A DNA stretch of 64,000 nt from Myxococcales bacterium (GTDB lineage Bacteria; Myxococcota_A; Polyangia; Haliangiales; Haliangiaceae), in assembly GCA_016708565.1 (NCBI GenBank), contig JADJFN010000001.1:412863-476862 (forward strand), given 5' to 3'. The position numbers were made by a program, and so were the translations under genes. Positions 11,881-39,189 of this stretch are shown here, one piece after another. Numbering within the stretch: the first letter of the stretch is position 1; each line of letters begins with the position of its first letter. The notes under the pieces were generated by a model. The model saw only the letters and a program-made list of their open reading frames with translations. It did no database searches and had not been told where the DNA came from.

Positions 11881-11984
11881 CCGAGTGTCGAGACGAATGC
11901 TAGCAGACGATTCGGCTACTTAGCAAACCGGTGCGATCCAGTTGAAACCCCCGCCGTCCAGGGGGCCACCAACCGAGCGTGCCC

Positions 11985-12359
11985 TCACCCCGCCGCCTCG
12001 TCGGACTCGACCTGCTCGCGGGCGGTCTTGCAGTCGAAGCACAGGGTGGTCATCGGGCGGGCCATGAGCCGGCGGAAGCCGATCGGCTCGCTGCACTCCT
12101 CGCACTCGTCGATCTCCCCCGCCTGGAGCCGCTTGATCGCGTCCTGGATCTTGCCGATCAGGAAGTTCTCGCGGTCGTGGAGCCGCAGCTGGGTGGAGTA
12201 CAGCTCCTCCTCCATCGACTCGTCCATCGAGTCCCGCCCGATGCGGTCGCGATCGCGGTCCATCGTGAAGCCGATCGCCGACTGGGCGTTGGCGACCAGG
12301 CGGCCCAGCTCGGCCTCGAGGCGCGTCCGCAGCTCTTCGCTCTCGGTTGCCGTCAGCAT
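11985..12359 (-). CDS. DksA/TraR-family C4 zinc-finger protein
   Basis: Coiled-coil N-terminus and a C4 finger CEECSEPIGFRRLMARPMTTLCFDC. Confidence 0.85.
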   Translation of the reverse strand: MLTATESEELRTRLEAELGRLVANAQSAIGFTMDRDRDRIGRDSMDESMEEELYSTQLRLHDRENFLIGKIQDAIKRLQAGEIDECEECSEPIGFRRLMARPMTTLCFDCKTAREQVESDEAAG

Positions 12360-12532
12360 GGCCCTAGTCTATGGACCGGCGCGCGCGGGCGTCAATCGCC
12401 CGGGGGCGCGCGCCGCGGGAGTGGGCTGGCGCCGTCGTGGAGGCCCTTGACGCGCGCGCGAAATGAACCTCCGGGCCTGGCCGTTCGTTCAACCAGCGAG
12501 CGGACGCGCCGCGCCCGCCGCCAGGAGTCTCC

Positions 12533-14860
12533 GTGACCTCCATTCGCCGCTACCAGCTCGCCTGCGCCGTCCTCGCCGCCTCCACCGTCGCCGCCCTGGC
12601 GTGGCCCCGCGCGACCGCGCCGGCCCCCGGGCGCGCCGCGCGGCCCGCCATCAAGGGGCGCGCCGCCGCCCAGGATCTGCGCCGCCCGCTGCGGGTGAGC
12701 GCCGCCGCGGTCGGCCTGTCGGAGCGCGAGCTGATCGAGAAGCTGCTCGCGGCGCGCACGCTGCAAGAGGTGCAGATCTACGCCGACAAGCTGGGCGCGG
12801 TCGGCACCGACGACGGCGTCGACGCGCTGGCGTCGTTGGCCGACGACCCGCGGATGGCGGTGCCCGAGGCCGCGATCGCGGCGATCGGCAAGATCGGCAG
12901 CGAGCGCGCGGTGGCCACGCTGGCCGAGCTGACCGACGACGCCCGCCCGCGCATCCGCGGCGCGGCGCTGACCGCGCTGGCCGACGCCGGCGGCGGCGCC
13001 GCCGCGGACATCCTGCTCGCGGTGGCCGCCGATCGCGGCGACCCGCTGCGCGCGACCGCGGTGTACGCGCTGGGCACGCTGGGCGGCGACACCGCCGCCG
13101 ACGCGCTGGCCCGGATCGCCACCACCAGCGACATCGACACCGCGCAGGCCGCGGTCTACGCGCTGACCCAGATCCCCAGCGACCACGCCCAGCGGTTGCT
13201 GGCGGCGATGATCGACAGCGGCGACGCGCGCATCCGCACCCAGGCGCTGGCCAACCTGCGCCCGGTCGACGCGGCGACGGTGGCCAAGGTGGTGGCGCTG
13301 CTCGGCAGCGGCGACCCCGGCGTGGTGTCGTCGGCGGTCGCGGCGCTGGCCCGCACCGGCGACCCCGCGCACCTGCCGACGATCGTCGAGGTCGCCGCCC
13401 ACGGGCCGCCCGGCGCGCGCTACGCGGCGGTGGCGGCGATCGGCGAGCTGGGCGGCCCCGCGGCGGTCAAGGCGCTCGGGAGCTTGCTCGCGAGCGGCGA
13501 CCGCAACCTGGTCGGCACCGTGGCCCAGACGCTGGTCAACCTCGGCGACGACGAGGCCCGCAAGCTGCTGATCGCCGCCGCGCTGGCCGGCGGGCCGGCG
13601 TCGAGCCAGGTGATCGGCGCGCTGACCCAGCTGCGCAGCCCGGACGTCACCGAGGCGATGCGCGAGATCGCGCGCCACGGCAGCGCGGCCGACCGGCGCG
13701 CGGTGCTGCCGCAGCTGGTGAAGAGCGGCGATCCCGACGCGCTGGCGATCGCGATCGGCATGGCGACGTCGGGCAGCCGGCAGGACAAGGCCGAGGCGAT
13801 CACGATGCTGGCCGGCGCCGGCGCGCCCGAGGCCAAGGGCGCGCTCCTGGCGATCGCCGAGGGCAGCCACGGCGCCACCCGCAGCCAGGCGCTCGACGCG
13901 CTGGCCAACTCCGATCCCAGCGACCCCGCGGTCGCGCAGCTCCTGGCCGACTCGCTGTTCTCGGGCCGCGCCGACGAGGCGCAGAGCGCGGCGTGGGTGC
14001 TGGGCCGGATCGGCACCGACGACGCGCGCGAGGCGCTGGTGGCCGCGCTCAAGGACGACGATCTCACCGTCGCCAACGCGGCGATGAGCGCGCTCGGGCA
14101 GCTCGGCTCGCCGGCCGACGTGCGCGCGGCGCTGGCCGACGTGGCGCGCACCGGCAAGCCCGAGCTGCGCGGCCAGGCGCTGGCCCAGCTGATGGGCACC
14201 GGCGCGCCCGAGGCGCTGGCGCTGGCCGAGCAGGCGCTGCGCGGCGATGATCCCGACCTGGCGCGCAACGTCGCCTACTCGCTGTCCAACCTGGGCGGCG
14301 CCGACGCCCAGCGCCTGCTCGCGGTGGCGGCGCGGTCGAGCGACCCGTCGGTGCGCGCGGCCTCGGTGGGCGCGCTGGTGCAGGCCGGCGACGACGCCGC
14401 GACCGACGCGCTCTTGACGCTGACCCGCGACAGCGATCCGTCGGTGAAGGCCCAGGCGCTGGCGTCGCTGGGCCAGGTCGGCTCGGCGCGCGCGGTCGAC
14501 GCGCTGGTGTCGGCGGCCGGCGGCGGCGCGGCCGAGGATCGCATCGCCGCGCTGCAGGGCCTGGGCAACGTCGACGACCCGCGGGCGTCGGCGACGCTGG
14601 CCCGCGCCATCGAGGAGCGCGACGACGGCGTCGCCACCGCGGCGATCTGGGCCGCGTACAACGGCGGCGACGACGTCGACCAGGCGCTGCTGCGCGCGTT
14701 CACCAACCCGGCGGCGTCCGACGCGATCCGCAACGCCGCCGGCCAGCAGATCCGGTCGCGCGGCCTCGACGTCGACGACGCCACCCGCGCCAAGCTCGAC
14801 GCGCTGCTCGGCCCGGGCGGCTACGGCGGCTACGGCTACGGCGGGTACGGCGGCGAGTAG
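12533..14860 (+). CDS. Secreted HEAT-repeat (PBS-lyase-like) protein with Gly/Tyr-rich C-terminal tail
   Basis: Signal peptide, then more than 15 HEAT-like repeats (DPxxRxxAxxALGxIG). The protein ends GPGGYGGYGYGGYGGE. Confidence 0.8.
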   Translation: MTSIRRYQLACAVLAASTVAALAWPRATAPAPGRAARPAIKGRAAAQDLRRPLRVSAAAVGLSERELIEKLLAARTLQEVQIYADKLGAVGTDDGVDALASLADDPRMAVPEAAIAAIGKIGSERAVATLAELTDDARPRIRGAALTALADAGGGAAADILLAVAADRGDPLRATAVYALGTLGGDTAADALARIATTSDIDTAQAAVYALTQIPSDHAQRLLAAMIDSGDARIRTQALANLRPVDAATVAKVVALLGSGDPGVVSSAVAALARTGDPAHLPTIVEVAAHGPPGARYAAVAAIGELGGPAAVKALGSLLASGDRNLVGTVAQTLVNLGDDEARKLLIAAALAGGPASSQVIGALTQLRSPDVTEAMREIARHGSAADRRAVLPQLVKSGDPDALAIAIGMATSGSRQDKAEAITMLAGAGAPEAKGALLAIAEGSHGATRSQALDALANSDPSDPAVAQLLADSLFSGRADEAQSAAWVLGRIGTDDAREALVAALKDDDLTVANAAMSALGQLGSPADVRAALADVARTGKPELRGQALAQLMGTGAPEALALAEQALRGDDPDLARNVAYSLSNLGGADAQRLLAVAARSSDPSVRAASVGALVQAGDDAATDALLTLTRDSDPSVKAQALASLGQVGSARAVDALVSAAGGGAAEDRIAALQGLGNVDDPRASATLARAIEERDDGVATAAIWAAYNGGDDVDQALLRAFTNPAASDAIRNAAGQQIRSRGLDVDDATRAKLDALLGPGGYGGYGYGGYGGE

Positions 14861-14864
14861 CTGG

Positions 14865-15278
14865 TCACTCGTCGTCGGCGTCGAGCTCGTCGACCTCGTC
14901 GGTCACCGCCGCGGCGTGCGGGAACAGCGGCCCGCGCGCCTCGCGGTTCACCAGGCCCAGGCCCGCGCAGCCGCGCGCGGCCGCCGGATCCGGCGCGCCG
15001 CTCACGCAGGTCCTCGCCAGCGGCCCCAGCCCCGGCCGCTGGCACAGATCGATCACCTCCACCGCGAACCGCAGCACCTCGCCCTGCTGCGCCGCCGGCG
15101 CGCCCGCCACCCACCGCTCCGCCGCCCGCGCCACCGCCCGACACCCGTTGTCCTTCGCCGGCGCCGCCGCCCGCCCCCCGCACCCCGCGAGCAGCACGGC
15201 GATCGCGATGCCTCGTCGAACGGCCACGAACCTGATCCGGCGTTGACGCAACGAATCTCGCTCGAACCTCGCGCGCAT
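14865..15278 (-). CDS. Small Cys-containing lipoprotein with acidic tail
   Basis: Lipobox LLAGCGG, five further Cys, C-terminal DEVDELDADDE. High GC3. Confidence 0.6.
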   Translation of the reverse strand: MRARFERDSLRQRRIRFVAVRRGIAIAVLLAGCGGRAAAPAKDNGCRAVARAAERWVAGAPAAQQGEVLRFAVEVIDLCQRPGLGPLARTCVSGAPDPAAARGCAGLGLVNREARGPLFPHAAAVTDEVDELDADDE

Positions 15279-15297
15279 CGATCAACCTGCCGTGCCC

Positions 15298-15364
15298 ACG
15301 CTCCGGGCCGTTTTGGGAGGGGGCCCCGGCGAATGCCGGGGGAGGGTCTTTGCGAAAGACCCTC
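15298..15364. repeat. Composite GC-rich palindromic element downstream of clpX
   Basis: acgctccgggccgttttgggagggggccccgg (31/32 identical to 10531-10562), then hairpins ccccggc-gaat-gccgggg and gagggtcttt-gcg-aaagaccctc. Confidence 0.6.
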
Positions 15365-15376
15365 GTCTCAATACGC

Positions 15377-16585
<1,209 letters not shown>

Positions 16586-16636
16586 CCGGGTCCGATTCTT
16601 ACATGCCTTCCGCCGACGGCAACAGGGGTTGTGGCT

Positions 16637-16655
16637 CTTGACGCGCCGGGTCAAG
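16637..16655. promoter_or_regulatory. Palindrome CTTGAC-gcgccgg-GTCAAG in the clpX / OmpR-like regulator divergent intergenic region
   Basis: Provides TTGACG on the plus strand and TTGACC on the minus strand: candidate overlapping divergent -35 boxes or an operator. Confidence 0.35.
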
Positions 16656-16674
16656 CAGGTGATCACTTGCTCCC

Positions 16675-17370
16675 GTGCGTGCGCTGGTGATCTGCGCCGA
16701 GCCGGCGACGAGTCGCGACGACCGGGCTTCATTGGCGGCCGCGTTGGCCGATCTCGGCAGCCCGGTGACGTTGGCGAGGTTCGATCTGGGCGATCTCGAC
16801 ACCGCCGCGCTCGCGGCCGCGCCACCGACGGTGATCGTGATCGATGCTGGCGACGAGCTGGCGCGGGCGCTGCGCACGGTGAAGAAGGTTCGGAGCGGCG
16901 GCGCCCTGGCCGAGGTGCCGATCCTGGTGGCGCTGCCGGTGGCCCGGCTGCCCGGGCTGGACGTCTCGGCGGGCTTCGACGACTTCGTGCTCACCCCGCT
17001 CGTCCCCGCCGAACTGTACGCGCGGGTACGCCAGCTCGACTGGCGGGCCGCCGCCTTCGACTCCGACGAGCTGGTGAAGATCGACGACCTGGTGATCGAC
17101 CTGGCCGGCCACGAGGCCCGGCTGGCCGGGCGCGGGCTCGGCCTGACCCACCAGGAGTTCGAGCTGCTGGCCTACCTGGCCCAGCACCGCGGGCGGGCGT
17201 TCACGCGCGATCAGCTCCTCGAGACGGTCTGGGGCTACACGTACACCGGGGGCACGCGCACCGTCGACATCCATGTGCGCCGGCTGCGCGCCAAGCTCGG
17301 CCCCAGCGCCGGCGACCTGATCGAGACGGTCCGCAACCTCGGCTACAAGATGCGGTCCCGCGGCCGCTGA
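16675..17370 (+). CDS. OmpR-family winged-helix regulator with atypical/degenerate receiver domain
   Basis: GTG start. C-terminal trans_reg_C pattern ([31 protein letters not shown]...[13 protein letters not shown]). The N-terminal receiver lacks a clear phospho-Asp context. Confidence 0.8.
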
Positions 17371-22578: not shown

Positions 22579-23408
22579 GGCGTGACGGTACCAGAGTCCG
22601 AGGGATCGGTGGCAAGCGGTTGCGCGATCGTGCCGGTCCAGGCCAGCGCGCCGCCGGCGAGCGTCAGCGCCGCGGCCGCCGCGACCGCGAGGCCCGCGTG
22701 GTGATCGATCGCCGCGGCGATCGCCGGCAGCGCGCCGGCGCCGATCAGCGCGACGATCAGGTTGTTGGTCGCGTGCAGCGCCACCGCTGGCCAGATCGAG
22801 CCGCCGCGCATCGCCAGCACGCCGGCGACGCCGCCCAGGATCGCGGTCGCCACCATCCGCGCCGGCTCGAGGTGCAGGACCGCGAAGGCCAGCGTCGACA
22901 GCGCGATCGCCAGCGGGCGGCCGATCGCCGGCGCCAGGCCGCCGGCCAGGAGCCCGCGGTGGGTGAGCTCCTCGCTCACGCTCGGCACGATCACCATCGT
23001 GACGATCACCAGCGCCAGCGACGGGCGGTCGGCGAACAGCCCGGTCGACCAGGCGCGCACCGCTTGATCGCGCTGCGTCCACTCGACCACCGGCGCGGCC
23101 GCGTGCAGCGCCAGCAGCCACAGCCCCGCGCCGCACACCGCGCCGCCGACGACGGCGCGCAGGCGTGGGCGCCGCAGGCCGAGGTGCGCGGGCGCGACCT
23201 CGTGGACGCGCATGATCGCCAGCGGCACCAGCCCCAGGCCGACCACCTCGGCCGCCGCGCCGCCGACGCGATCGCCGCCGACCAGCAGCGCGGCGCCGAA
23301 CATCGTCGCCAGCGCCAGCGCGTACGCGGCGAGCGTGGTGCCGACCGACAGCGGGGCGCCGGCGCCGTGGTACAAGCGACGGGTGAAGTTCTGGGTCGGG
23401 CTCGCCAT
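22575..23408 (-). CDS. CPBP-family (CAAX-type) intramembrane glutamic protease
   Basis: Motifs EELTHRGLL (EExxxR), FAVLHL (FxxxH) and HATNN (HxxxN), with about 6 TM helices. ATG at 23408 verified in sequence. Confidence 0.8.
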   Translation of the reverse strand: MASPTQNFTRRLYHGAGAPLSVGTTLAAYALALATMFGAALLVGGDRVGGAAAEVVGLGLVPLAIMRVHEVAPAHLGLRRPRLRAVVGGAVCGAGLWLLALHAAAPVVEWTQRDQAVRAWSTGLFADRPSLALVIVTMVIVPSVSEELTHRGLLAGGLAPAIGRPLAIALSTLAFAVLHLEPARMVATAILGGVAGVLAMRGGSIWPAVALHATNNLIVALIGAGALPAIAAAIDHHAGLAVAAAAALTLAGGALAWTGTIAQPLATDPSDSGTVTP

Positions 23409-23988
23409 CGGCCTAGCGCTCGGCGCCGCCGCAATGTACCTCGGCCTGCGTCCGCCCTGGCGCACCGCGGGCGCGCCCGCGCCGGTGGCCGTCGCGCCGC
23501 CGACCGCGCCCGACGCCGGCGTGCCGGCCGCGCCGAAGAAGAAGAAGGGCAAGCGCACCAGCACGACGAGCTCGGCCGGTGGCGCGGTCGAGCGCGAGGT
23601 CGACGACGACGTCGTCTTGACCGACGCCGATCGCAAGGTCGAGTGGCGGGGCGACGCGGTGGCGGCGCCACCGCGCACCCTCGACATGGGCGCGGGCGAC
23701 GACGCCCGGCCGCTCGATGACGGCGAGATCTCCAGCGGCGTCGCGGGCGGATCTCCAGCGGTGGTCGACTGCATCAAGGACGCGGCCGGCGCGGCGCCGC
23801 TGTCGGGGCAGGTGACGCTGCAGATGCTGGTCGGCGCCGACGGCAAGGTCACCAAGACCCGCGTCCGCGCGGCGGTCTACCTCCATGAGCATGGGCTGAC
23901 CGCGTGCGCGCGGCGCGCGGCCCGCGGCTTCGACTTCCCCGCGACCGGCGCGCCGACCGTCGTCACCGCCCCGTTCTTCCTGAACTGA
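23377..23988 (+). CDS. TonB-C-like (AgmX/PglI-type C-terminal domain) single-pass membrane protein
   Basis: TM helix FWVGLAIGLALGAAAMYLGL, a Lys-rich segment, then a C-terminal domain with a TonB-C-like pattern and two Cys (VDCIKD...LTACARRAARGFDFP...FFLN). Start uncertain: GTG 23377 overlaps the divergent CPBP start by about 30 nt, ATG 23434 is the alternative. Confidence 0.65.
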   Translation, partial: RRVKFWVGLAIGLALGAAAMYLGLRPPWRTAGAPAPVAVAPPTAPDAGVPAAPKKKKGKRTSTTSSAGGAVEREVDDDVVLTDADRKVEWRGDAVAAPPRTLDMGAGDDARPLDDGEISSGVAGGSPAVVDCIKDAAGAAPLSGQVTLQMLVGADGKVTKTRVRAAVYLHEHGLTACARRAARGFDFPATGAPTVVTAPFFLN

Positions 23989-24017
23989 ATTCCGACGAGG
24001 GGTGCCCGCTGCACGCG

Positions 24018-26048
24018 TCAGGGCGTGCCGGCGCCGTTGGCCCAGTCGGGCGTCGGGCCGGTGCTGCCGCTGCCGGGCGACGCGGTGCCCGATCCCGAGC
24101 CGGTCGGCGGCTTGGCCGAGCCCGATCCGGAACCCGATCCCGAGCCGGTCGGCGGCTTGGCCGAGCCCGATCCGGAACCCGATCCCGAGCCGGTCGGCGG
24201 CTTGGCCGAGCCCGAACCCGAGGCGGATCCGGAACCAGAGCCGGAGTCGGAACCGGATCCGGAGCCGCCGGCGGCGGAGCCGGAACCGGAACCGGAGCCA
24301 GCGGCGGAGCCGGAGTCGGACCCTGATCCCGAGCCGGCACCGGCGTCGGAGCCCGAGCCGCTGCCGGTCGCGCTGCCGCTGCCGGTGCCCGTCTTGGCGA
24401 GATCCATCGTGGCGTCGGTGGTCGCGGCGAGTTGATCGCCCTCGGCGGCGAACTGGTCCGGCTTGATGACCGTGCTCCACGGCTGGTAGCCGCGCTTGCG
24501 CAGGTAGACCCGCACGCCGCCGGCCTTGGCCGCCTGGGCCTTGGTCAGCGTCACGTCGGCCGGCGTCACCTTGCCGGTCTCGGCACCGTCGACCGCGATC
24601 GTCGCGCCGGCCGGCGTCGACGTCACGTGGATCATCCGCGGCAGCCCCTCGAGCTTCGCGGTCGCGGTCTTGTCGCCGCCGTTGACCTTGAGCTCGGCGT
24701 CCTGGAAGCCCGGGGCGCTCACCTTGATCGTGAACGGCTTGCCGACCTCGAGGTCGACGGTGAACGGCGCCGGCCCACTGGCGCCGGTCTCGACGACGGT
24801 CACGGTGGCCCCAGCGACGGCGGCCTTGACCACCAGCGGCGCGGTGACCGCCGGGGCGGCGGCCGCGTCGATCGCGACCTCGGCGGTGACGGCAGCGTCG
24901 GGGGCCAACGGGGCCATCGCGTCGATCGCGGCGACCGCGACCTGGGTGCCGGTGGCGGTGCCCGAGGCGGTCGGCGGCGTCGGCGCCTCGTTCTTCTTCT
25001 CGGCCTTGCCGCGCAGCACGAAGAACCACACGGCGGCGGCCACCAGCGCGGCCGCGAGCAGGCCGATGATCACGGCCGAGGCGCCCTTGCTGGACGTCCC
25101 GGGGATCGCGGTCGGCTCGGCGGGCGCGGCCGTCGCGGTGGCGGCGGGGCGGGCGGCGGCGGTCTTGGCGGCGGCCGCGGTCTTGGCGGCGGCGATCGCC
25201 GGCTCATCGACGAGGCGCGGGGCCGGGCTCGGCGCGGGGGCCGGCGCTGGCGTGGGCGCGGGCGGCGCCTCGGGCACCGGCACCGCGCGCACCACCGGCG
25301 CGGTGGTGTCCGCCGGCGACGGCTCCGCCGGCGGGGGCGGGGTGGGCGCGGCGAGCTTCTTCTCCGACGCGCGCGCGGCCTTGGCCTCGGCGCGGGCCTC
25401 GGCGGCCGCCTCGCCGGCGGCGGTGGCGGCGACCAGGTCGTCGAGCGCGCGCACCTTGGTCGCTTCCTCGAAGGTCTCCTCGGGGAACTCGTCGGCGTCG
25501 CTGTGGAACGGCATCGGCCGCGGCAGCGGCGTGGTGTCGGTGCGCTCGTCGGCGAACCCCGACTTCGACGGCGCCATCTGGCCCAGCTTGGGCTTGGCGA
25601 CCTCGGCGGCCGCGGCGGCCAGGGGAGACGGCGCGACCCGCGTCGGCGCGTCCATGAAGTTCTTGTTGGGCGGCGGCTCGGTGTTGCCCGACGACGTCGA
25701 TGGCTGCTTGGCCTTCTCGGCGAGGATGCGATCGAGGATCGGCTGGCTGCCGTCGCCCAGCCGGTCGAAGCGCACGCCCATGCCGGGCGCGGCGTTGGGG
25801 CGGGCCGGATCGTTCTCGCGGGTCCAGACGACGGTGCCGTCGCCGGTGATCAGCGGCGTCGCGTCGCGGAGCTGGAACTCGAACCGCATCTGGGTGCCGA
25901 CGGCCAGCGGCTCCTTGGTCCGGATGAAGATGCCGCCGGGGCTCACGTCGGCGGCGTAGCGCTCGATGAACTGATCCAGGGTCGCGCTCTTGAACTTGAT
26001 CTTGAGCGTGACCGGCGCGCGCTTGGCTTGACGGGTGTTGGGATCCAC
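24018..26048 (-). CDS. PilZ (c-di-GMP-binding) domain protein with disordered linker, TM helix, periplasmic PEGA-like domains and Gly/Ser-rich tandem-repeat tail
   Basis: N-terminus RQAKR (RxxxR) and DVSPGGIF (DxSxGG) are canonical PilZ motifs. About 200 aa Ala/Pro/Glu-rich linker, [27 protein letters not shown]-like segments ([21 protein letters not shown]), then a C-terminal (GS)n-AKPPTG x3 tail. Confidence 0.85.
24091..24225. repeat. Tandem 45-bp direct repeat x3 inside the PilZ-PEGA gene (encodes [15 protein letters not shown] units)
   Basis: Unit gatcccgagccggtcggcggcttggccgagcccgatccggaaccc is repeated perfectly twice with a third diverged copy. Confidence 0.8.
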
Positions 26049-26140
26049 CAGGGTTCTCCAGAAGTCGACGGCTGTGGGTCGAACGACGATTCCCGCCGTC
26101 GGTCGAAACGCAACGCGCCGAGATGTTTCATCTTAGGAGC

Positions 26141-27883
26141 ATGACCCGCGTGATTGCAACGCGCTCGGCCGCCGAGCGCACCACGACTCGCGTCGCCCAC
26201 CCGAGCCCACACGCCGCCGCCTCGCTGGCCTTCGCCGTCGGGCTGGTCGGCGCCGCCGCCACCGCGCGCGCCCAGGGCGCGGTCGCCGCCGACGATCCCC
26301 GCGCCACCGCGGTGGGCGCCGCGGTGCTGGCCGACGGCGGCACCGCCGCCGACGCCGCGGTCGCCACCGCCCTGGCGCTGGGCGTGGTGAACCCGGCCTC
26401 GTCCGGGATCGGCGGCGGCGGGTTCGCGATCGTCTACGACGCCGCCACTGGCCAGACCTACGCCTTCGACTTCCGCGAGGTGGCGCCGGCCGCGCTCGAC
26501 CCTGGCGACTTCGTCGTCGATGGCGCGGTCGATCCCATGCGCGCGCGGCGCGGCGGGCTGGCGGTCGGTGTGCCGGGCGAGGTCGCCGGCCTGACGCTCC
26601 TGACCGAGCGGTTCGGGCGCCTGAGCTGGCGCCGGCTGGTGGCGCCGGCGATGCGGCTGGCCCGCGAGGGCTCGCCGACCTCGGCCTTCATGAGCCAGGC
26701 CGCGGCCCGCGTGGTGCCGACCCTGCCCGACGAGCCCGCGTTCGCGCCGCTGCGCGCGCTGCTCACCGTCGACGGCGCGCCGCGCCCGGTCGGCGCGCCG
26801 CTCGTGCGGCCGGCGCTGGCCGCGACCCTGGGCGCGCTGAGCCGCGACCGCCGCGCGCTGGCCACCGGACCGATCGCCGACGATCTGGTCGCCACCGCGG
26901 CCGCCGCCGGCGGGGTGATCACCACCGCCGATCTGGCCGCCTATCAGGTGGCCGAGCGCGCGCCGCTCGACGGGCGCTGGCGCGGCCACCGCCTGGCGAC
27001 CATGCCGATCCCGTCGTCGGGTGGCGTCGTGCTGCTCGAGGCGCTGGCCATCATCGACGGCGCCGGCGTCGATCTGGCGACGCTGGGCGCCAGCTCACCA
27101 GCGGCGCTGCACGTGATCGTCGAGGCGCTCAAGCACGGCTTCGCCGATCGCGCGCGCGCGCTGGGCGACACCGACGCCGGGCGGGCCGCGGCGCGGGCGA
27201 TGCTCGCGCCGGCGCGGCTCGCAGCGTTGGCCCGCGCCGTCGATCGCGATCGCACGCTGCCCAGCGCGCGCTACGGCGAGCCGGCGCCGGTGGTGACGCC
27301 AAGGCCGGGCGGCACCAGCCACGTCTGCGTCGTCGATCGCGACGGCAACGCGGTCGCGCTCACCACCACCGTCAACGGCTACTACGGCGCCAAGCTGGTG
27401 ACCCCGACCGGCCTCGTGCTCAACAACCAGATCGACGACTTCGCCGTGGCGGTCGACGCCAGCAACATGTACGGGCTGCGCCAGGGCGCCGAGAACCTGG
27501 TCGGCCCCGGCAAGCGGCCGCTGTCGTCGATGACCCCGGTGCTGGTGATCGACGGCGACCGCGTGGTCGGCTGTGTCGGCGGCTCGGGCGGGCCGCGCAT
27601 CATCTCCAACACGCTGCAGGTGCTGCTCGATCTGTTCGTGTTCGGGCTCGACCCGGCGACCGCGGTGGCGGCGCCACGGATCCACCACCAGTGGCAGCCC
27701 GACGTGCTGGTCGTCGAGCCCGAGTTGCCGGCGGCGACCCGCGCGGCGCTGGCGGCGCGCGGCCACCAGGTCGAGGTGGCCGACGACATCACCGCGGTGC
27801 AGGCGATCCGGGTCGGCCCGGCCGGCGCGGTCGGCGCCAGCGACCCGCGCAAGAACGGCGCGCGCGCGGCCGCGGCGCGCTAG
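26141..27883 (+). CDS. ggt: Gamma-glutamyltransferase
   Basis: GGT family throughout. Catalytic Thr context GGTSHVCVVDRDGNAVALTTTVN and GGSGGPRII. ATG at 26141 is preceded by AGGAG. Confidence 0.9.
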   Translation: MTRVIATRSAAERTTTRVAHPSPHAAASLAFAVGLVGAAATARAQGAVAADDPRATAVGAAVLADGGTAADAAVATALALGVVNPASSGIGGGGFAIVYDAATGQTYAFDFREVAPAALDPGDFVVDGAVDPMRARRGGLAVGVPGEVAGLTLLTERFGRLSWRRLVAPAMRLAREGSPTSAFMSQAAARVVPTLPDEPAFAPLRALLTVDGAPRPVGAPLVRPALAATLGALSRDRRALATGPIADDLVATAAAAGGVITTADLAAYQVAERAPLDGRWRGHRLATMPIPSSGGVVLLEALAIIDGAGVDLATLGASSPAALHVIVEALKHGFADRARALGDTDAGRAAARAMLAPARLAALARAVDRDRTLPSARYGEPAPVVTPRPGGTSHVCVVDRDGNAVALTTTVNGYYGAKLVTPTGLVLNNQIDDFAVAVDASNMYGLRQGAENLVGPGKRPLSSMTPVLVIDGDRVVGCVGGSGGPRIISNTLQVLLDLFVFGLDPATAVAAPRIHHQWQPDVLVVEPELPAATRAALAARGHQVEVADDITAVQAIRVGPAGAVGASDPRKNGARAAAAR

Positions 27884-27892: not shown

Positions 27893-28411
27893 ATGTCGCC
27901 TCGCTGGATCACCGCGGCCTGGTGTGGGCTGGCGGCCGCGCTGCTGATCGCCGCAGCGTTGTCGTCGCGCTGGCTGGTCGCGGACGTCGCTGGTCTGGGC
28001 GCCTCGGTGTCCGCGCGCATCGGGCTCACCAGCGTCAAGGTGTGCGCGTCGACCTTGGGCGACGCGCAGTGCCAGGAGGTGGCGTGGTCGCAGCTGCCCG
28101 GCCAGGTCGAGGGCAGCGGCTGGATGTGGATCGGCCGCGCCACCTTCGCGCTGTGCCTGATCGCCGCGCTCGGCTTGATCGCGCTGGGCGGCATGGCGGT
28201 CGCCGAGCTCGAGGTCCAGCTGCCGATCCCGGCCCCGCGGCTGGTGCTGTGGCCATGTCTGGCGCTCTTGCCGTTCATCGGCGCGTACTACCTGTTCCCG
28301 CCGCGCGCGTTCAGCGAGCTGGCCGCCGGGCGCGGCTTCGCGTTCGGCGTCGTCGGCGGTCTGCTCGGTGCATTCGCGGCGTGGCGCCAGCTCAAGGACG
28401 ACTGGCGCTAG
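27893..28411 (+). CDS. Hypothetical integral membrane protein (about 4 TM)
   Basis: High GC3, four hydrophobic helices, starts 9 nt after the ggt stop. Confidence 0.6.
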   Translation: MSPRWITAAWCGLAAALLIAAALSSRWLVADVAGLGASVSARIGLTSVKVCASTLGDAQCQEVAWSQLPGQVEGSGWMWIGRATFALCLIAALGLIALGGMAVAELEVQLPIPAPRLVLWPCLALLPFIGAYYLFPPRAFSELAAGRGFAFGVVGGLLGAFAAWRQLKDDWR

Positions 28412-29751
28412 CGGCGCCCCGCCTTCGCGGATCCCCGCATTCTGCTTGCCGGTGGGGCCTTGGCTCGGCGGCGCCGGCGTGCGGTCGGCGGCGCCTCGAC
28501 CTGGCCGCCCACCTGAGCCGGAGCCACCGCGACCTCACCTCCCGCAGGGGACGGCGCCACCGCGGCTTCGCCGCCCGCAGGACGCGGCGGCCCCGCTTTC
28601 CCGTCTCCCACGTGGGACGGCGGCGCCCCATACGGTCGCCCGTCGGCGTGCGTGACCCGCAGCTTGCCAGGTGCGGTGCCGACGATCCGCAGCCGGCCAT
28701 CATGCGCGGCCTTGTGATGCGCCGAGCACAGCACCGCCAGCTTGGTCGGCGTGTGATCGCCGCCCGCCACCCGCGGGACGATGTGGTGCACGTCGACGTA
28801 CCGCGCGTTGCGGCACCCCGGCACCACGCACCGCCCGCGATCCCGCCGCAGCACCGCACGCCGGGTCCGCGGCGGGATCGTCTTGGTCACCCGCGCGGGC
28901 TTGTCGCCGTCGACCCGCCCCAGCAGCTCGGCGTCGCACGACGCCTGCGCCAGCTCCGTCTCGCTGATCTCGATCGTGTGCCCAGCGACGTCCTGCCACG
29001 CGCGCATGCAGTCGGGGCACCGCGTGATCGCGATCTGATACATGGGCCTGGACGCCGCCGCGGCGTCTCCCTCGTGCGACGCCGCCGCGGCATCTCCCAC
29101 GTGGGAGCCGGCGCCCGCCAGCTGCCCATCGCACAACGTCGCGATGAGGTCGCCGTCGGTCAGCGGGTGCCCGCACGCCGCCTCCAGCGCGCGCCGTGCT
29201 GCGGTGAACTTGCCCAGCACCGCCGCGGGCAGCAGCAGCCGCAGCTCGTGCAGCCGCGCGGCGGGATCCGGCGGATCGTCCGGCGAGTCGCCCCGCCGGC
29301 GCCCGCTCACCATGTCCTCGATCTCCCGCACGGTGTGCTTGGCCGCCGCGGTCAGCCACGCCGCCTCGGTGTCGACGGTGGCGACCCGGGTCAGCTCGCG
29401 CGCCGCGCTGTACGCGACGTCGCCCGCGCTCATCGCCGCGCGCAGCTTCGGCAACGCCGCGAGCGCGTCGGCCACCCGCAAGCGCTCGCGCGCCGGTCCC
29501 GGCGCGTAGCCCAGCACGCGCTCGACGTACTCGAAGAACGTCGCGAAGCCCAGCTCGCGATGGACGCCGAGCGCCCGCGCGCGCCGCAGCCACGCGGCCT
29601 CCTCGACGTCGAGCGCCGCCCGCCGCCGCGCCAGCCCGCGCAACATCCGATCGACGTCGCGCCAGTCGTCCACGCCGGCCGCCGCGCCCGCCGCGCCCGC
29701 CGCCGCCGCCACCTCGCCCACCTTCTGTTCGCCCGCTGCCCCGTCCACCAT
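28408..29751 (-). CDS. HNH endonuclease domain protein with N-terminal DUF222-like region and SHVGD-type internal repeats
   Basis: HNH motif CVVPGCRNARYVDVHHIVPRVAGGDHTPTKLAVLCSAHHKAAHDG. N-terminal region resembles DUF222 (13E12-repeat family). Repeats SHVGDAAAASHEGDAAAAS ... PPSHVGDGKAG. ATG at 29751. Confidence 0.8.
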   Translation of the reverse strand: MVDGAAGEQKVGEVAAAAGAAGAAAGVDDWRDVDRMLRGLARRRAALDVEEAAWLRRARALGVHRELGFATFFEYVERVLGYAPGPARERLRVADALAALPKLRAAMSAGDVAYSAARELTRVATVDTEAAWLTAAAKHTVREIEDMVSGRRRGDSPDDPPDPAARLHELRLLLPAAVLGKFTAARRALEAACGHPLTDGDLIATLCDGQLAGAGSHVGDAAAASHEGDAAAASRPMYQIAITRCPDCMRAWQDVAGHTIEISETELAQASCDAELLGRVDGDKPARVTKTIPPRTRRAVLRRDRGRCVVPGCRNARYVDVHHIVPRVAGGDHTPTKLAVLCSAHHKAAHDGRLRIVGTAPGKLRVTHADGRPYGAPPSHVGDGKAGPPRPAGGEAAVAPSPAGGEVAVAPAQVGGQVEAPPTARRRRRAKAPPASRMRGSAKAGRR

Positions 29752-29809
29752 ACCCAGCCCCTCAGCAAGCCGCGCGCCAGCCGTAACCCTGCGACGCCTG
29801 GCGCCGCGT

Positions 29810-29881
29810 GTCCGAATCTCGGACAAAATGGCCGGATTCGTCCGGCGTTCCGGCCATCCCCGGACAGCCACGGCTGTCCGG
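29810..29881. promoter_or_regulatory. Cluster of three inverted repeats with TCCGGAC/GTCCGGA cores upstream of the HNH gene
   Basis: gtccga-atc-tcggac (29810-24), atggccgga-N12-tccggccat (29828-57) and ccggacagcc-ac-ggctgtccgg (29860-81, 10-bp perfect arms). Confidence 0.5.
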
Positions 29882-29954
29882 CGCCGGACACCGCCAGCCC
29901 GCGCACGTCGACGCAGCCCGCTCCGTGACCCGCATCGGCGCCAGCCGCGCCGCG

Positions 29955-30953: not shown

Positions 30954-32485
<1,532 letters not shown>

Positions 32486-32486
<1 letters not shown>

Positions 32487-33022
32487 TGCGCGGCGCGGCC
32501 GTGGCGGCGGCGGCGCTGGTGGCGTGCGGCCGCATCGACTACGACCCGGTCATCGACGGCGGCGCCGACGGCGACGCCGCGACCGACGCGCTGCCCGCGT
32601 GCACCGCGCCGTACGCCGTGATCGGCGGCTCGTGCTACCGCATGGTCGAGGTGCCGGCGAGCTGGGACGCGGCCCAGGCCGCCTGCGAGGCCGATGGCGC
32701 GCACCTGGTGATCGTCGGCTCGGTCGCCGAGCACGACGTCGTCCACGGCCTCCTGACCGACGCCGGCGTCACCGGCGGCTGGGTCGGCGCCAGCGATCGC
32801 GTCGCCGAGGACAGCTGGCGCTGGGTCGGCGCCGGCGGCGTCGACCTGCTGGCCGATCAGTGCTTCTTCGGCGCCGGCGGCCCGGCGAACTCGGCGGTGC
32901 TCGACTGCGTCGCCAGCTTCGCCACCAACTTCTGCGGCGACTACACGCTGTTCCTGTGCAGCGACAGCCACCCGTACGTGTGCGAGCGCGACGGCGTGGC
33001 GATCGATCGCGCCGCGTTCTGA
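32486..33022 (+). CDS. C-type lectin-like domain lipoprotein
   Basis: ATG overlaps the accC stop (TGATG). Lipobox LVACG. CTLD-like pattern (CYRMVEVPASWDAAQAACEADGAHLVIV...WVGASD...WRWV...C...C). Confidence 0.7.
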
Positions 33023-33172
33023 CGCCGCCGCGCGCGGCCCGGCGCCGGTCCGCACGGGCGTGGCGATCGCTGGCGGGAGGATCGAGCATACGCCCGCGCG
33101 CGACGCGGTCAACGACGAAGCGCGCGGTGAAACCGCGCGGGTGACGATCGCGCGCGCTCGTGCGCATCGGCG

Positions 33173-34873
<1,701 letters not shown>

Positions 34874-34877
34874 ACTC

Positions 34878-34948
34878 CCTGGAAGGGGCTTTCGCAAAGC
34901 CCCTTCCCCGTCGGGGGCATGCCCCGACGGGGCCCCAACCCGAACCGC
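34878..34948. repeat. Double-hairpin palindromic element downstream of pyrG
   Basis: ggaaggggcttt-cgc-aaagccccttcc (12-bp stem), ccccgtcgggg-gcatg-ccccgacgggg (11-bp stem), then ccccaacccgaaccgcgagagc. Confidence 0.6.
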
Positions 34949-34967
34949 GAGAGCCCACAGCCCCGCC

Positions 34968-35867
34968 ATGGACCGCGCCTTCGCCGCCGCGCTGACGGTC
35001 GAGCCGCCCGCGGTGACCGCGCTGGACGCGTGGCGCGCCGCCACCGCGGCGGTGCGCGCGGCGGGATCGACGCCGATCGCGCGCGCGTTCCTGGGCGGCG
35101 TGGCCGCCGATCGGCTGGGCTTCGCGTTCGCCGGCGGCTACGCCGAGGCGCTGCGCGCGCTGGTGCCGGCCCACCCGCGGCCGCTCGCGGCGCTGTGCGC
35201 GACCGAGGAGGGCGGGGCGCACCCGCGGGCCATCCGCACCGCGCTGACCGCGGCCGGCGACGGCTTCCTCCTGGCCGGCCACAAGCGCTGGGCCACGATG
35301 TCGGCCGCCGGCGGCGACCTGCTGGTGATCGCCACCCGCGGCGACGGCCCCGACGGCAAGCCCCGGCTGGTGGCGGTGACCGTGGCCGCCGACGCCCCGG
35401 GGGTGACGCTGACGCCGGCCAGCGCGCCGTTCGTCCCCGAGATCCCGCACGCGACGGTCGCGCTGGCCGACGTGGCGGTCGCCGCCGACGCGGTGCTGCC
35501 CGGCGACGGCTACGCCACGTACCTCAAGCCGTTCCGCACCGTCGAGGACCTCCACGTCCACGCCGCGCTGTGCGGCTACCTGATCGGCGTGGCCCGGCGC
35601 CACCACCTGGGCGACGCGCTGGTCGAGCGCGGCCTGGCGCTGGCCGCGGCGCTGGCGACGCTCGGCGCCGCCGACCCGCGCGCCGCCGCCACCCACCGCG
35701 CCCTGGCCGGCGCGATCGATCTGGCCAGCGACCAGGTCGCCGCGCTGGAGGCCGCCTGGGCCGCGGTCGGCGGCGACGAGTGGCAGCGCTGGCAGCGCGA
35801 CCGGCCGCTCCTGGGCGTGGCCCGGGCCGCCCGGGCCGCCCGGCTCGAGCGCGCCCGGCAGGGGTAA
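34968..35867 (+). CDS. Hypothetical protein (weak acyl-CoA dehydrogenase-fold-like features)
   Basis: High GC3, 299 aa, GGYAEAL...LAGHKRWATMSAAG pattern. No confident family assignment. Confidence 0.6.
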   Translation: MDRAFAAALTVEPPAVTALDAWRAATAAVRAAGSTPIARAFLGGVAADRLGFAFAGGYAEALRALVPAHPRPLAALCATEEGGAHPRAIRTALTAAGDGFLLAGHKRWATMSAAGGDLLVIATRGDGPDGKPRLVAVTVAADAPGVTLTPASAPFVPEIPHATVALADVAVAADAVLPGDGYATYLKPFRTVEDLHVHAALCGYLIGVARRHHLGDALVERGLALAAALATLGAADPRAAATHRALAGAIDLASDQVAALEAAWAAVGGDEWQRWQRDRPLLGVARAARAARLERARQG

Positions 35868-36073
35868 CCGGACCAAACCGCAGGCGGAGCTGGATCCGGA
35901 GCGTCGATCCCGTGTGGTTTAGCAACATCGGTGCCACAAGCCGTCGCCGGGGGTAGACATCATCCGATGGCTTGGGTAGAGTCGTGACGAGTTGGGCTAA
36001 TGCCAACTTCGGGCCAGCGTGAAGGGCGGCCCGTGCCTCATTCCAACGTTACGGAATTAAAGGAGGATCGCCG
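35868..36073 (+). promoter_or_regulatory. rpoN upstream region: locally lower-GC leader with strong RBS
   Basis: AAAGGAGGA lies 4 nt before the ATG at 36074. ttacggaattaaagg is unusually AT-rich for this genome. Promoter elements not resolved. Confidence 0.3.
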
Positions 36074-37591: not shown

Positions 37592-37657
37592 CAGCCGCCC
37601 GCCATTCGCCGTCGCTGGTGTGCGAGGCCGTCGGGATGCCGCCGGTCCGGTCGCGGG

Positions 37658-38575: not shown

Positions 38576-38593
38576 AACGGCTTCGGAGGCCAA

Positions 38594-39175
<582 letters not shown>

Positions 39176-39189
39176 CGGGATCGGTAGGC

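What the first reader, a model, noticed from the sequence alone, without database searches (positions are those of the whole stretch)
24018..26048. Transmembrane PilZ protein: cytoplasmic c-di-GMP receptor domain wired through a TM helix to periplasmic PEGA-like domains and a (GS)n-AKPPTG repeat tail
The N-terminus carries both canonical c-di-GMP-binding PilZ motifs (RQAKR = RxxxR; DVSPGG = DxSxGG). It is followed by a 200-aa Ala/Pro/Glu-rich disordered linker, one TM helix, two PEGA-like beta domains and a highly flexible Gly/Ser tail with three exact 15-aa repeats. PilZ domains are normally cytoplasmic adaptors, so a single-pass architecture that places PEGA domains outside the membrane suggests inside-out c-di-GMP control of an envelope or S-layer/EPS-associated structure. 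It is divergently paired with ggt and sits next to a TonB-C-like (AgmX/PglI-type) membrane protein.
Basis: partly seen in the sequence, partly recalled or inferred. Interest (0 to 1): 0.6.

Follow-up and report, generated by a model that had tools for sequence, protein, structure and literature searches.

The report
Membrane-anchored PilZ–PEGA c-di-GMP receptor family
This gene encodes a real but uncharacterised single-pass membrane protein of Kofleriaceae-type myxobacteria, with a probable c-di-GMP-sensing PilZ head in the cytoplasm and two PEGA beta-sandwich domains plus a flexible tail in the periplasm; it looks like a new variant of known membrane-anchored second-messenger receptors such as Alg44, not a new kind of system.

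Summary
ORF 24018-26048(-) encodes 676 aa with PilZ (46.5 bits), TIGR02266 (78.3 bits), both c-di-GMP motifs, one TM helix, two PEGA domains modelled at pLDDT 96-98, and three exact 45-bp repeats.

It belongs to a large uncharacterised family: more than 650 proteins, relatives in 244 species-level genomes, and all 80 listed loci are Kofleriaceae/Haliangiales/Myxococcales MAGs.

- The "disordered linker" holds two family-specific motifs (~80% identity).
- The PilZ head is 92% identical across the family, against 46-53% for the PEGA domains.
- The GS tail is one version of a fast-evolving spacer (GS-, Pro/Lys/Glu-rich or mixed) ending in a conserved E-P-x-P-D-W/F peptide.

The ggt and AgmX-like neighbours are confined to a subclade. 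The conserved neighbour is accC-pyrG-rpoN, and no EPS or S-layer genes are linked.

Best reading: a bitopic c-di-GMP-gated adaptor. The PilZ head and linker motifs recruit a conserved cytoplasmic partner. The periplasmic stalk and terminal peptide anchor it in the envelope. This resembles Alg44 in topology and GltJ in switch logic.

c-di-GMP binding, topology and partners are all inferred. The TM-flank K/R counts of this particular protein run against the assumed topology. Novelty: new variant of a known kind. Interest: moderate.

The parts
24018..26048 (-). Complete ORF, 676 aa, GTG start, PilZ-TM-PEGA protein
   Evidence: GC3 0.95-0.99 along the frame; full-length homologs at 40-87% identity
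25707..26036 (-). PilZ domain (aa 5-114): beta-barrel plus C-terminal helix 101-114
   Evidence: Pfam PF07238 46.5 bits and TIGR02266 78.3 bits; AF2 pLDDT 90-97; Foldseek matches to PilZ structures, TM 0.61-0.67; 91.9% mean pairwise identity across the family
26019..26033 (-). RxxxR motif (R6-Q-A-K-R10) on a flexible N-terminal arm
   Evidence: R6 and R10 invariant; present in 121/121 homologs; aa 1-10 pLDDT 53
25932..25949 (-). DxSxGG motif (D34-V-S-P-G-G39)
   Evidence: D34, S36, G38 and G39 invariant; 121/121 homologs, 28 residues after RxxxR in 118
25623..25658 (-). Linker motif 1 (aa 131-142, F-x-D-x-P-T-R-V-A-P-x-P)
   Evidence: 81.7% mean pairwise identity; F131, P135, T136, V138 and P140 invariant in A1
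25413..25535 (-). Linker motif 2 (aa 172-212, [38 protein letters not shown]), partly helical
   Evidence: 78.8% mean pairwise identity; helix 202-216/224 in the AF2 models; family-specific, with 93 hits among 1.84 billion representatives
25011..25085 (-). Single transmembrane helix (aa 322-346), ending in the conserved VWFFVLR
   Evidence: Kyte-Doolittle peak 2.75; one peak in 121/121 homologs; AF2 helix 324-349
24645..24851 (-). PEGA-like beta-sandwich 1 (aa 400-468)
24399..24644 (-). PEGA-like beta-sandwich 2 (aa 469-550)
   Evidence: best Pfam PEGA stretch aa 473-531; AF2 pLDDT 95-98
24069..24398 (-). Gly/Ser-rich disordered tail (aa 551-660)
   Evidence: G 33%, S 32%; pLDDT below 50; tail composition and length vary across the family
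24088..24215 (-). 45-bp tandem repeat, 2.8 copies, 100% identical ([15 protein letters not shown] unit)
   Evidence: AKPPTG copy number differs among close relatives: 3 in the window, 2 in L005, 2 in L001
24021..24068 (-). C-terminal end with the conserved P-x-P-D-W/F peptide (GPTPDW, aa 664-669)
   Evidence: a terminal P[DENQ][WF] is present in 103/139 family members whatever the tail composition

Best explanation
The gene encodes a bitopic inner-membrane c-di-GMP receptor belonging to a family specific to Kofleriaceae/Haliangiales-type Myxococcota.

Shown here:
- An N-terminal PilZ barrel with invariant RxxxR and DxSxGG motifs.
- A disordered linker of about 200 aa that carries two highly conserved, family-specific linear motifs.
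- One TM helix.
- A spacer of about 55 aa.
- Two PEGA (transthyretin-like) beta-sandwiches.
- A fast-evolving low-complexity tail ending in a conserved P-x-P-D-W/F peptide.

Inferred:
- Topology: the PilZ head and linker are cytoplasmic, and everything after the TM helix is periplasmic.
- Mechanism: c-di-GMP binds the PilZ head and changes what the head and the two linker motifs bind. This could act through an intramolecular latch, or through c-di-GMP-bridged dimerisation.
- Outcome: a conserved cytoplasmic partner is recruited to, or released from, a membrane site. That site is fixed in the envelope by the PEGA stalk and the terminal peptide.

The protein therefore works as a c-di-GMP-gated, membrane-anchored adaptor or tether. 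Its topology resembles Alg44 and its switch logic resembles GltJ. It is not an allosteric inside-out transducer of an EPS or S-layer machine.
For: - Domains and motifs.
- PilZ fold: pLDDT 90-97, with a flexible RxxxR arm as in apo PilZ proteins. Foldseek matches PilZ structures, including the c-di-GMP binders MotI, PA4608 and MrkH.
- Periplasmic module: pLDDT 96-98. Its fold relatives are extracytoplasmic: carboxypeptidase D transthyretin-like domains, the SusC NTE, an S-layer SlaB and pilins.
- Membrane anchoring: one TM in 121/121 homologs and no N-terminal signal sequence. Net flank charge favours N-in in 93/121.
- Conservation gradient: PilZ 91.9%, motif 1 81.7%, motif 2 78.8%, PEGA 46-53%, spacers 31-42%. 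The PilZ head is 83-85% identical to distant members. In the same genomes accC is 79%, pyrG 82% and rpoN 75% identical.
- Motif 2 is restricted to this family in 1.84 billion representatives.
- Tail composition switches between GS-rich, Pro/Lys/Glu-rich and mixed, while the terminal PDW peptide persists.
- Precedents: Alg44 is PilZ, one TM helix and a periplasmic domain (PMC8461298). In GltJ a small cytoplasmic domain and MglA-GTP compete for a discrete motif in the protein's own disordered linker (PMC11135422). PixA of M. xanthus carries the motifs and binds c-di-GMP through RxxxR (PMC8316039).
Against: - c-di-GMP binding is untested. The closest solved relatives by sequence and fold are Xanthomonas type IV pilus PilZ proteins, which do not bind c-di-GMP.
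- No canonical binder is reached by sequence search of the PDB.
- Topology is not predicted by any dedicated tool. For this protein the K/R count is 1 on the N side of the TM and 4 on the C side. The family K+R average is balanced at 2.26 vs 2.31.
- AF2 does not dock the linker motifs confidently onto PilZ (pLDDT 58-72), so the latch idea lacks structural support.
- No conserved operon partner points to the machine served.
Confidence: 0.55

Rival explanations
1. [quoted passage not shown] It would resemble Xanthomonas/Pseudomonas type IV pilus PilZ (which binds PilB and FimX) or M. xanthus PlpA. On this view the protein is a constitutive membrane tether for a cytoplasmic partner, for example a PilB-type ATPase.
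For: - The best sequence and fold matches are XAC1133/XC1028 PilZ, including PilZ-PilB and PilZ-FimX complexes.
- The 92% identity across the whole PilZ surface is more than ligand binding alone would require.
Against: - RxxxR and DxSxGG are invariant in 121/121 members at fixed spacing.
- At the positions where the non-binding Xanthomonas proteins have F and K, this family has D34 and S36. The Xanthomonas proteins also lack the N-terminal RxxxR arm.
- PilZ domains in fusion proteins are reported to keep c-di-GMP binding (bioRxiv 10.1101/814665).
Confidence: 0.15
2. One reading: allosteric inside-out signalling. c-di-GMP binding in the cytoplasm changes the conformation of the periplasmic PEGA domains and so controls an EPS, S-layer or other envelope structure. 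The adjacent AgmX-like protein and ggt might take part.
For: - The architecture parallels Alg44 (PMC8461298).
- The PEGA fold occurs in surface-layer and envelope proteins.
- The AgmX-like gene lies convergent and 30 bp away in the window.
Against: - About 200 disordered residues separate PilZ from the TM helix.
- No polysaccharide or S-layer genes are adjacent in any locus examined.
- ggt is present in 21 of 84 loci and the AgmX-like gene in 6 of 84.
- The periplasmic part is the less conserved half.
Confidence: 0.12
3. Outside-in signalling. The PEGA domains and terminal peptide sense or bind an envelope component. Their state (clustering or tension) controls how the cytoplasmic PilZ head and motifs bind c-di-GMP or partners. 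The protein would then report envelope status to the c-di-GMP network.
For: - The domain order is the same as in receptor-like bitopic proteins.
- GYF/ZnR proteins of the GltJ type are proposed to signal between compartments (PMC11135422).
- The periplasmic part diverges quickly, as sensor domains often do.
Against: - PilZ has no known output activity of its own.
- The long disordered linker is as much a problem for transmission in this direction.
- No ligand-binding pocket or conserved surface in the PEGA domains was identified here.
Confidence: 0.1
4. Reversed topology: PilZ and the linker lie outside and the PEGA domains and tail lie in the cytoplasm, as a naive positive-inside count for this protein suggests.
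For: K/R count is 1 before and 4 after the TM helix in the window protein.
Against: - There is no signal peptide, and the N-terminal region is a 320-aa stretch containing a folded domain.
- c-di-GMP is a cytoplasmic ligand.
- The family-wide K+R count is balanced, and net charge favours N-in in 93/121.
- The fold relatives of the PEGA region are extracytoplasmic.
Confidence: 0.03

Closest known systems
Alg44 (Pseudomonas aeruginosa alginate co-polymerase)
   Same: An N-terminal c-di-GMP-binding PilZ domain is joined by a single TM helix to a periplasmic domain (PMC8461298; bioRxiv 10.1101/814665). This is the same overall topology and the same idea of a membrane-anchored PilZ receptor.
   Different: - Alg44's periplasmic part is an HlyD/MFP-type domain. 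Here it is two PEGA sandwiches plus a low-complexity tail, with no HlyD hit.
- alg44 lies in the alg operon beside the glycosyltransferase alg8. Here there is no EPS context.
- This family has a 200-aa linker with two conserved motifs.
Xanthomonas/Pseudomonas type IV pilus PilZ (XAC1133, XC1028, PA2960 type)
   Same: These are the closest solved relatives of the PilZ head by sequence (E 5e-5) and by fold (TM 0.61-0.67). They share the GGIF(V/I)xT and G-V-(V/I)-W-T...G-x-G-V-x-F segments and the C-terminal helix.
   Different: - Those are stand-alone proteins of about 115 aa that lack RxxxR and D/S in the second motif, and they bind PilB/FimX rather than c-di-GMP.
- This family keeps both motifs invariant and is fused to a TM helix and periplasmic domains.
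GltJ / GltG (PglI / AgmX) of the Myxococcus Agl-Glt gliding machinery
   Same: Both are bitopic myxobacterial proteins with a small cytoplasmic regulatory domain, a long disordered linker with a discrete binding motif, one TM helix and a periplasmic beta domain. In GltJ the linker motif is contested between the protein's own ZnR domain and MglA-GTP (PMC11135422).
   Different: - The domains differ: ZnR/GYF or FHA heads and a TonB_C-like C-terminal domain, against PilZ and PEGA here.
- There is no sequence relationship. This protein gives no NF033768 or TonB_C hit.
- The resemblance concerns how the proteins may work, not family membership.
TIGR02266 PilZ paralogs of Myxococcus xanthus (e.g. 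PixA, PlpA and other PilZ proteins)
   Same: The head matches the NCBIfam TIGR02266 model above its cut-off. M. xanthus PilZ proteins that carry the motifs bind c-di-GMP (PixA; PMC8316039).
   Different: The M. xanthus study of 24 PilZ proteins mentions no transmembrane or PEGA-containing member. Whether PixA itself is a TIGR02266 member was not tested here.
LapD (Pseudomonas fluorescens), inside-out c-di-GMP receptor
   Same: Both involve a cytoplasmic c-di-GMP signal acting on a periplasmic event through an inner-membrane protein (my own knowledge, not checked here).
   Different: LapD uses degenerate GGDEF-EAL domains, a HAMP relay and two TM helices, with tight structural coupling. Here there is a PilZ head, one TM helix and a long disordered linker.

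Membership tests
PilZ domain (Pfam PF07238), canonical c-di-GMP-binding type | Profile match above the curated gathering score | tested here: met
   46.5 bits vs 22.5; aa 5-110 cover profile positions 2-101 of 102
PilZ domain (Pfam PF07238), canonical c-di-GMP-binding type | RxxxR motif near the N-terminus of the domain | tested here: met
   R6-Q-A-K-R10; R6 and R10 invariant; 121/121 homologs
PilZ domain (Pfam PF07238), canonical c-di-GMP-binding type | (D/N)xSxxG motif about 20-30 residues downstream | tested here: met
   D34-V-S-P-G-G39, 28 residues after R6; invariant
PilZ domain (Pfam PF07238), canonical c-di-GMP-binding type | Six-stranded beta-barrel followed by a C-terminal alpha-helix | tested here: met
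   AF2 aa 11-115 at pLDDT 90-97 with strands plus helix 101-114; Foldseek matches PilZ structures
PilZ domain (Pfam PF07238), canonical c-di-GMP-binding type | Specific binding of c-di-GMP | not testable with these tools
   Requires DRaCALA, ITC or MST on purified aa 1-120
TIGR02266 (NCBIfam myxobacterial PilZ paralog domain) | Profile match above the curated cut-off | tested here: met
   78.3 bits vs 68.7, aa 10-109
PEGA domain (Pfam PF08308) | Profile match above the gathering score and a beta-sandwich fold | tested here: met
Alg44 family | N-terminal PilZ plus a single TM helix | tested here: met
Alg44 family | Periplasmic HlyD/membrane-fusion-protein domain | tested here: not met
   No HlyD/MFP family among the Pfam hits even at E<=10 on the C-terminal region; PEGA is found instead
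Alg44 family | Encoded with a partner glycosyltransferase in an exopolysaccharide operon | tested here: not met
   Neighbours are ggt or accC-pyrG-rpoN upstream and variable genes downstream
Type IV pilus assembly PilZ (XAC1133/PA2960 type) | Stand-alone protein of about 115 aa that lacks the c-di-GMP motifs | tested here: not met
   676-aa fusion protein with both motifs invariant; aligned Xanthomonas proteins have F/K at the D34/S36 positions
GltG/GltJ (AgmX/PglI) family | C-terminal TonB_C-like AgmX/PglI domain (NF033768) | tested here: not met
   The PilZ-PEGA protein has no NF033768 or TonB_C hit. Only the neighbouring 184-aa ORF has a sub-threshold hit (32.6 vs 40 bits).
Bitopic N-in/C-out (type II) membrane protein | Single TM helix, cytoplasmic N-terminus, periplasmic C-terminus | tested here: inconclusive
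   The single TM helix is met (121/121). Orientation is unresolved: K+R is balanced across the family and reversed in this protein, while net charge favours N-in in 93/121. No dedicated topology predictor or reporter fusion was available.

The most novel reading that the evidence does not exclude
The family is a previously unrecognised kind of envelope-spanning c-di-GMP effector. The PilZ head is a type IV pilus-like PilZ that has kept its ligand motifs. Together with the two linker motifs it would form a c-di-GMP-operated latch that captures a conserved cytoplasmic machine, for example a PilB-type secretion or pilus ATPase. The PEGA stalk, variable spacer and terminal PDW peptide would physically couple that machine to a peptidoglycan or outer-membrane partner. 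In Haliangiales this would give a second-messenger-controlled trans-envelope tether, with near-housekeeping conservation beside accC-pyrG-rpoN.
Probability: 0.15. Interest if true: 0.7.

Novelty: new variant of a known kind. Interest (0 to 1): 0.42.

Why it matters
c-di-GMP signalling in Myxococcota has been studied almost entirely in Myxococcus xanthus, and none of its 24 described PilZ proteins is reported as membrane-spanning. This family is present in hundreds of Kofleriaceae/Haliangiales genomes. Its PilZ head is as conserved as core enzymes, and it has family-specific docking motifs.

If it is a c-di-GMP-gated adaptor linking a cytoplasmic partner to the envelope, it would add a second PilZ-TM-periplasmic output architecture alongside Alg44. 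It would also give an entry point into second-messenger control of the cell envelope in a large, mostly uncultured myxobacterial lineage.

The practical value is a well-defined set of constructs and motifs that can be tested directly. It is not a conceptual surprise.

Tried and rejected
- Exact-sequence look-up of the window protein in public assemblies: not on record.
- Homolog search with the PEGA pair alone, to find other 'heads' on the same periplasmic module: one weak hit only, and even the 85%-identical P0001 was missed. I treat this as a limit of the word index, not as absence.
- AFDB Foldseek search for named organisms and architectures: the library was unavailable.
- PDB sequence searches with the full-length profile and with a PilZ-only profile: only Xanthomonas type IV pilus PilZ proteins are reached. 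No canonical c-di-GMP binder is reached, so motif-for-motif alignment to a proven binder was not possible by sequence.
- Literature search for 'PilZ domain' together with 'PEGA domain': only an unrelated Treponema annotation paper and its correction.
- Idea that ggt or the AgmX-like neighbour is a functional partner: rejected, because both are confined to the nearest subclade.
- Idea that linker motif 2 is a portable module shared with another family: fragment P0201 carries it in a VIT-vWA context, but the 53 other VIT-vWA relatives checked lack it. It is an isolated chimera or recombinant on a 1.7-kb contig.
- Idea that AF2 would dock the linker motifs onto PilZ: the motifs stay at pLDDT 58-72, which is inconclusive. 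No PAE or coordinates were available.
- Promoter and terminator scans of 23300-26400: no sigma-70-like site, and terminator-like sites at the chance level.
- Rfam scan (including c-di-GMP riboswitches) and tRNA scan of the whole window: nothing.
Full report
**Observation**

It has a GTG start, which is the first start codon after an in-frame stop, and a GGAG lies 7 nt upstream. Third-position GC is 0.95-0.99 along the whole frame and 0.85 in the tail, so the entire length is coding.

Pfam gives PilZ (PF07238) at aa 5-110 with 46.5 bits against a gathering score of 22.5. It gives PEGA (PF08308) in two stretches with 45 bits against 20.8, rising to 51 bits on the isolated C-terminal region. NCBIfam gives TIGR02266, the myxobacterial PilZ paralog domain, at 78.3 bits against 68.7.

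RQAKR (aa 6-10) and DVSPGG (aa 34-39) are present. There is one hydrophobic peak at aa 322-346. The linker aa 113-325 is Ala 28%, Pro 18%, Glu 8%, and the tail is Gly 33%, Ser 32%. The three exact 15-aa repeats correspond to a 45-bp unit in 2.8 copies at 100% identity, at 24088-24215.

**A large, conserved, uncharacterised family**

The full-length protein finds more than 650 proteins at E<=0.001. The 120 listed are 590-790 aa, nearly all carry PilZ+PEGA, and where a source names them they are called 'TIGR02266 family protein' or, in two cases, pilus assembly PilZ. They come from Kofleriaceae or Myxococcales MAGs.

A scan of one genome per species finds a relative in 244 stretches. The 80 listed loci are all MAGs labelled Kofleriaceae, Haliangiales, Myxococcales, Myxococcota, Delta- or Proteobacteria. 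The best is 87% identical.

Across 121 sequences (120 homologs plus the window protein) every one has RxxxR, DxSxGG and exactly one hydrophobic peak. The two motifs lie 28 residues apart in 118 of them.

I found no paper that treats a PilZ-PEGA protein. The systematic study of the 24 PilZ proteins of M. xanthus mentions neither transmembrane nor PEGA-containing members.

1. *Conservation is steeply graded.* Mean pairwise identity in a 77-sequence alignment is:
   - PilZ head: 91.9%
   - Linker motif 1 (aa 131-142, FxDxPTRVAPxP): 81.7%
   - Linker motif 2 (aa 172-212, [38 protein letters not shown]): 78.8%
   - TM helix: 55.7%
   - The two PEGA domains: 53% and 46%
   - Spacers: 31-42%

   Against distant members the PilZ head is 83-85% identical while the PEGA region is 45-52%. 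In the same genomes accC, pyrG and rpoN are 79%, 82% and 75% identical. The cytoplasmic head is therefore under housekeeping-level constraint.

2. *The linker motifs are family-specific.* A phmmer search with aa 117-215 against 1.84 billion representative proteins gives only 93 hits. Almost all are 600-790 aa with the motif at the same position. Eight of the ten most divergent or oddly placed hits scanned show PilZ+PEGA in Pfam; two are garbled or frameshifted sequences with PilZ only, and P0201 has neither domain. P0201 is a 1.7-kb-contig fragment that carries motif 2 in a VIT-vWA context. The 53 other VIT-vWA relatives checked lack the motif, so P0201 is an isolated chimera.

3. *The tail is one version of a variable spacer.* Across 139 members the tail has a median length of 84 aa (range 28-206). 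It is GS-rich in 37, Pro/Lys/Glu-rich (TonB- or extensin-like) in 20 and mixed in 82. A terminal P-[DENQ]-[WF] peptide persists in 103 of the 139, typically as EPEPDWSK or EPTPDWMK. AKPPTG copy number differs even among the closest relatives: 3 in the window, 2 in L005, 2 in L001.

**Structure**

AF2 on the family alignment models aa 400-550 as two beta-sandwiches at pLDDT 96-98. It also gives one TM helix (324-349) and a short helix in motif 2, with everything else disordered.

A second model of aa 1-225, built on a more diverse alignment, gives the PilZ barrel plus C-terminal helix (aa 11-115) at pLDDT 90-97. The RxxxR arm (aa 1-10) is at 53, as expected for an unliganded PilZ. The linker motifs reach only 58-72, so there is no confident docking.

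The PilZ head is closest to Xanthomonas type IV pilus PilZ in its complexes with PilB and FimX (TM 0.61-0.67). Proven c-di-GMP binders (MotI, PA4608, MrkH) match more weakly. Sequence searches of the PDB also reach only the Xanthomonas proteins. In those alignments the non-binding proteins have F and K where this family has the invariant D34 and S36, and they lack the RxxxR arm.

The head is therefore a PilZ of the pilus-PilZ sequence type that has kept the full ligand signature. Actual binding remains untested.

**Topology**

There is no signal peptide, a 320-aa N-terminal region containing a folded PilZ domain, and a single TM helix. The C-terminal fold is typical of exported proteins. The sensible reading is N-in/C-out.

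This protein has 1 K/R in the 15 residues before the TM helix and 4 after it. The family mean is 2.26 against 2.31. Only the net charge (+1.1 against -0.3) favours N-in, in 93 of 121 sequences. No topology predictor was available. The orientation is therefore an inference that rests mainly on biology.

**Genomic context**

In the window and its closest relatives (L001, L002, L005) the gene order is: methyltransferase, a 170-aa gene, ggt, then the divergent PilZ-PEGA gene, then a convergent 184-aa gene, an Rce1-like protease, Crp, YkuD and PdxA.

In more distant family members ggt is absent. The divergent neighbour is accC, followed by pyrG, rpoN, hpf, ptsN, hprK and rapZ. The downstream neighbour varies: a 720-aa gene with a faint MORN_2 hit in one case and a 640-aa gene with a weak Hint hit in another.

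Among the 44 loci with at least 4 kb upstream, accC is present in 39, pyrG in 28, ggt in 8 and the AgmX-like gene in 3. Over all 84 loci ggt is found in 21 and the AgmX-like gene in 6.

The AgmX/PglI match of the small neighbour is below its cut-off, at 32.6 bits against 40. The gene therefore looks monocistronic. It sits in a conserved core region and has no EPS, S-layer, pilus or c-di-GMP-metabolising neighbour. The Rfam, tRNA, promoter and terminator scans add nothing.

**How it most likely works**

*Shown:* the domain order, the invariant ligand motifs, the single TM helix, the two confident beta-sandwiches, the family-specific linker motifs, the variable spacer with its conserved terminal peptide, and the conservation gradient.

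*Inferred:*
- The PilZ head binds c-di-GMP in the cytoplasm.
- Roughly 200 disordered residues separate the head from the membrane. Mechanical inside-out allostery through one helix is therefore unlikely.
- The extreme conservation of the head and of two short linear motifs points to one or more conserved cytoplasmic partners.

The closest mechanistic template is GltJ. It is a bitopic myxobacterial protein in which a small cytoplasmic domain and MglA-GTP compete for a discrete motif in the protein's own disordered linker (PMC11135422). The closest topological template is Alg44: PilZ, one TM helix and a periplasmic domain, with a PilZ dimer on c-di-GMP (PMC8461298).

My proposal is as follows. 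c-di-GMP alters what the PilZ head and the linker motifs bind, either through a latch or through ligand-bridged dimerisation. This recruits or releases a cytoplasmic partner at a membrane site. The PEGA stalk and the terminal PDW peptide hold that site in the envelope. From general polymer dimensions (my own knowledge), the post-TM spacer, the two sandwiches and a roughly 110-aa tail are long enough to cross the periplasm.

Confidence is about 0.55 for this overall reading. It is higher for the architecture and lower for the partner logic.

**Rivals**

- A non-binding PilZ acting purely as a protein-interaction module (0.15). It is favoured by the nearest solved relatives and disfavoured by the invariant motifs.
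It is disfavoured by the context, the linker and the conservation gradient.
- Outside-in reporting of envelope state (0.10).
- Reversed topology (0.03).

**Comparison with known families and novelty**

The protein is a member of PilZ/TIGR02266 and of PEGA by every testable criterion. It is not an Alg44 family member: it has no MFP domain and no EPS operon. It is not a type IV pilus PilZ, because it keeps the motifs and is a fusion protein. It is not a GltG/GltJ family member, because it has no TonB_C-like domain.

It works like a membrane-anchored PilZ receptor. I rate it a new variant of a known kind. The family is already in databases under a generic name, but as far as the searchable literature shows it has not been characterised.

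Interest is moderate (0.42). A c-di-GMP specialist would find the conservation pattern and the envelope-spanning layout worth an experiment, but not startling.

Noticed in passing
window 28408-29900 (-): An HNH-endonuclease-like ORF (Pfam HNH 20.0 bits, just under the 21.4 cut-off) fills a gap of about 1.5 kb between the 172-aa gene and the methyltransferase. The same gap exists in L005, but the two genes abut in L001. It looks like a variable insertion among close relatives.
   Followed up: partly
window 32525-33010 (+): A bacterial C-type lectin domain protein (Lectin_C, 39 bits) lies between accC and pyrG. It was found in only 2 of 84 related loci, both from the window's nearest clade.
   Followed up: partly
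window 23212-23988 (+) and 22581-23408 (-): The 258-aa ORF next to the PilZ gene overlaps the 5' end of the Rce1-like protease gene on the other strand. Homologous loci call a 184-aa product, so the real start is probably 23434. It has an N-terminal TM segment and a sub-threshold AgmX/PglI C-terminal domain (32.6 vs 40 bits). It ends 30 bp from the PilZ-PEGA stop codon.
   Followed up: partly
P0201 (Kofleriaceae fragment, 1.7-kb contig), aa 215-275: A VIT-vWA family C-terminal fragment carries an almost perfect copy of PilZ-PEGA linker motif 2 just before its own C-terminal TM helix. The 53 other relatives of that family that were checked lack the motif. It may be a recombinant or an assembly chimera.
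   Followed up: yes
window 30954-43642 (+): A conserved core block runs accC, (lectin), pyrG, an acyl-CoA dehydrogenase-like gene, rpoN, hpf, ptsN, hprK, rapZ, ptsH, ptsI. Apart from the lectin and acyl-CoA-dehydrogenase-like genes, it is syntenic with distant family loci L003/L004. This block, rather than ggt, is the stable neighbour of the PilZ-PEGA gene.
   Followed up: partly
window 25011-25085 (-), aa 338-346: The C-terminal end of the TM helix (A-V-W-F-F-V-L-R) is more conserved than the PEGA domains, with W341 and R346 in at least 90% of members. This may mark a contact with another membrane protein.
   Followed up: no
window 6687-16825 and 54741-59705: Other signalling and repeat proteins in the window: a 1269-aa TPR protein, a Ser/Thr kinase (10567-11880, -), a 775-aa HEAT-repeat protein, a ClpX-like ATPase, a PilS-like histidine kinase (54741-56072, +) and a sulfatase with a MopE-like metal-binding motif. 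No GGDEF/EAL gene was seen among the ten ORFs scanned.
   Followed up: no
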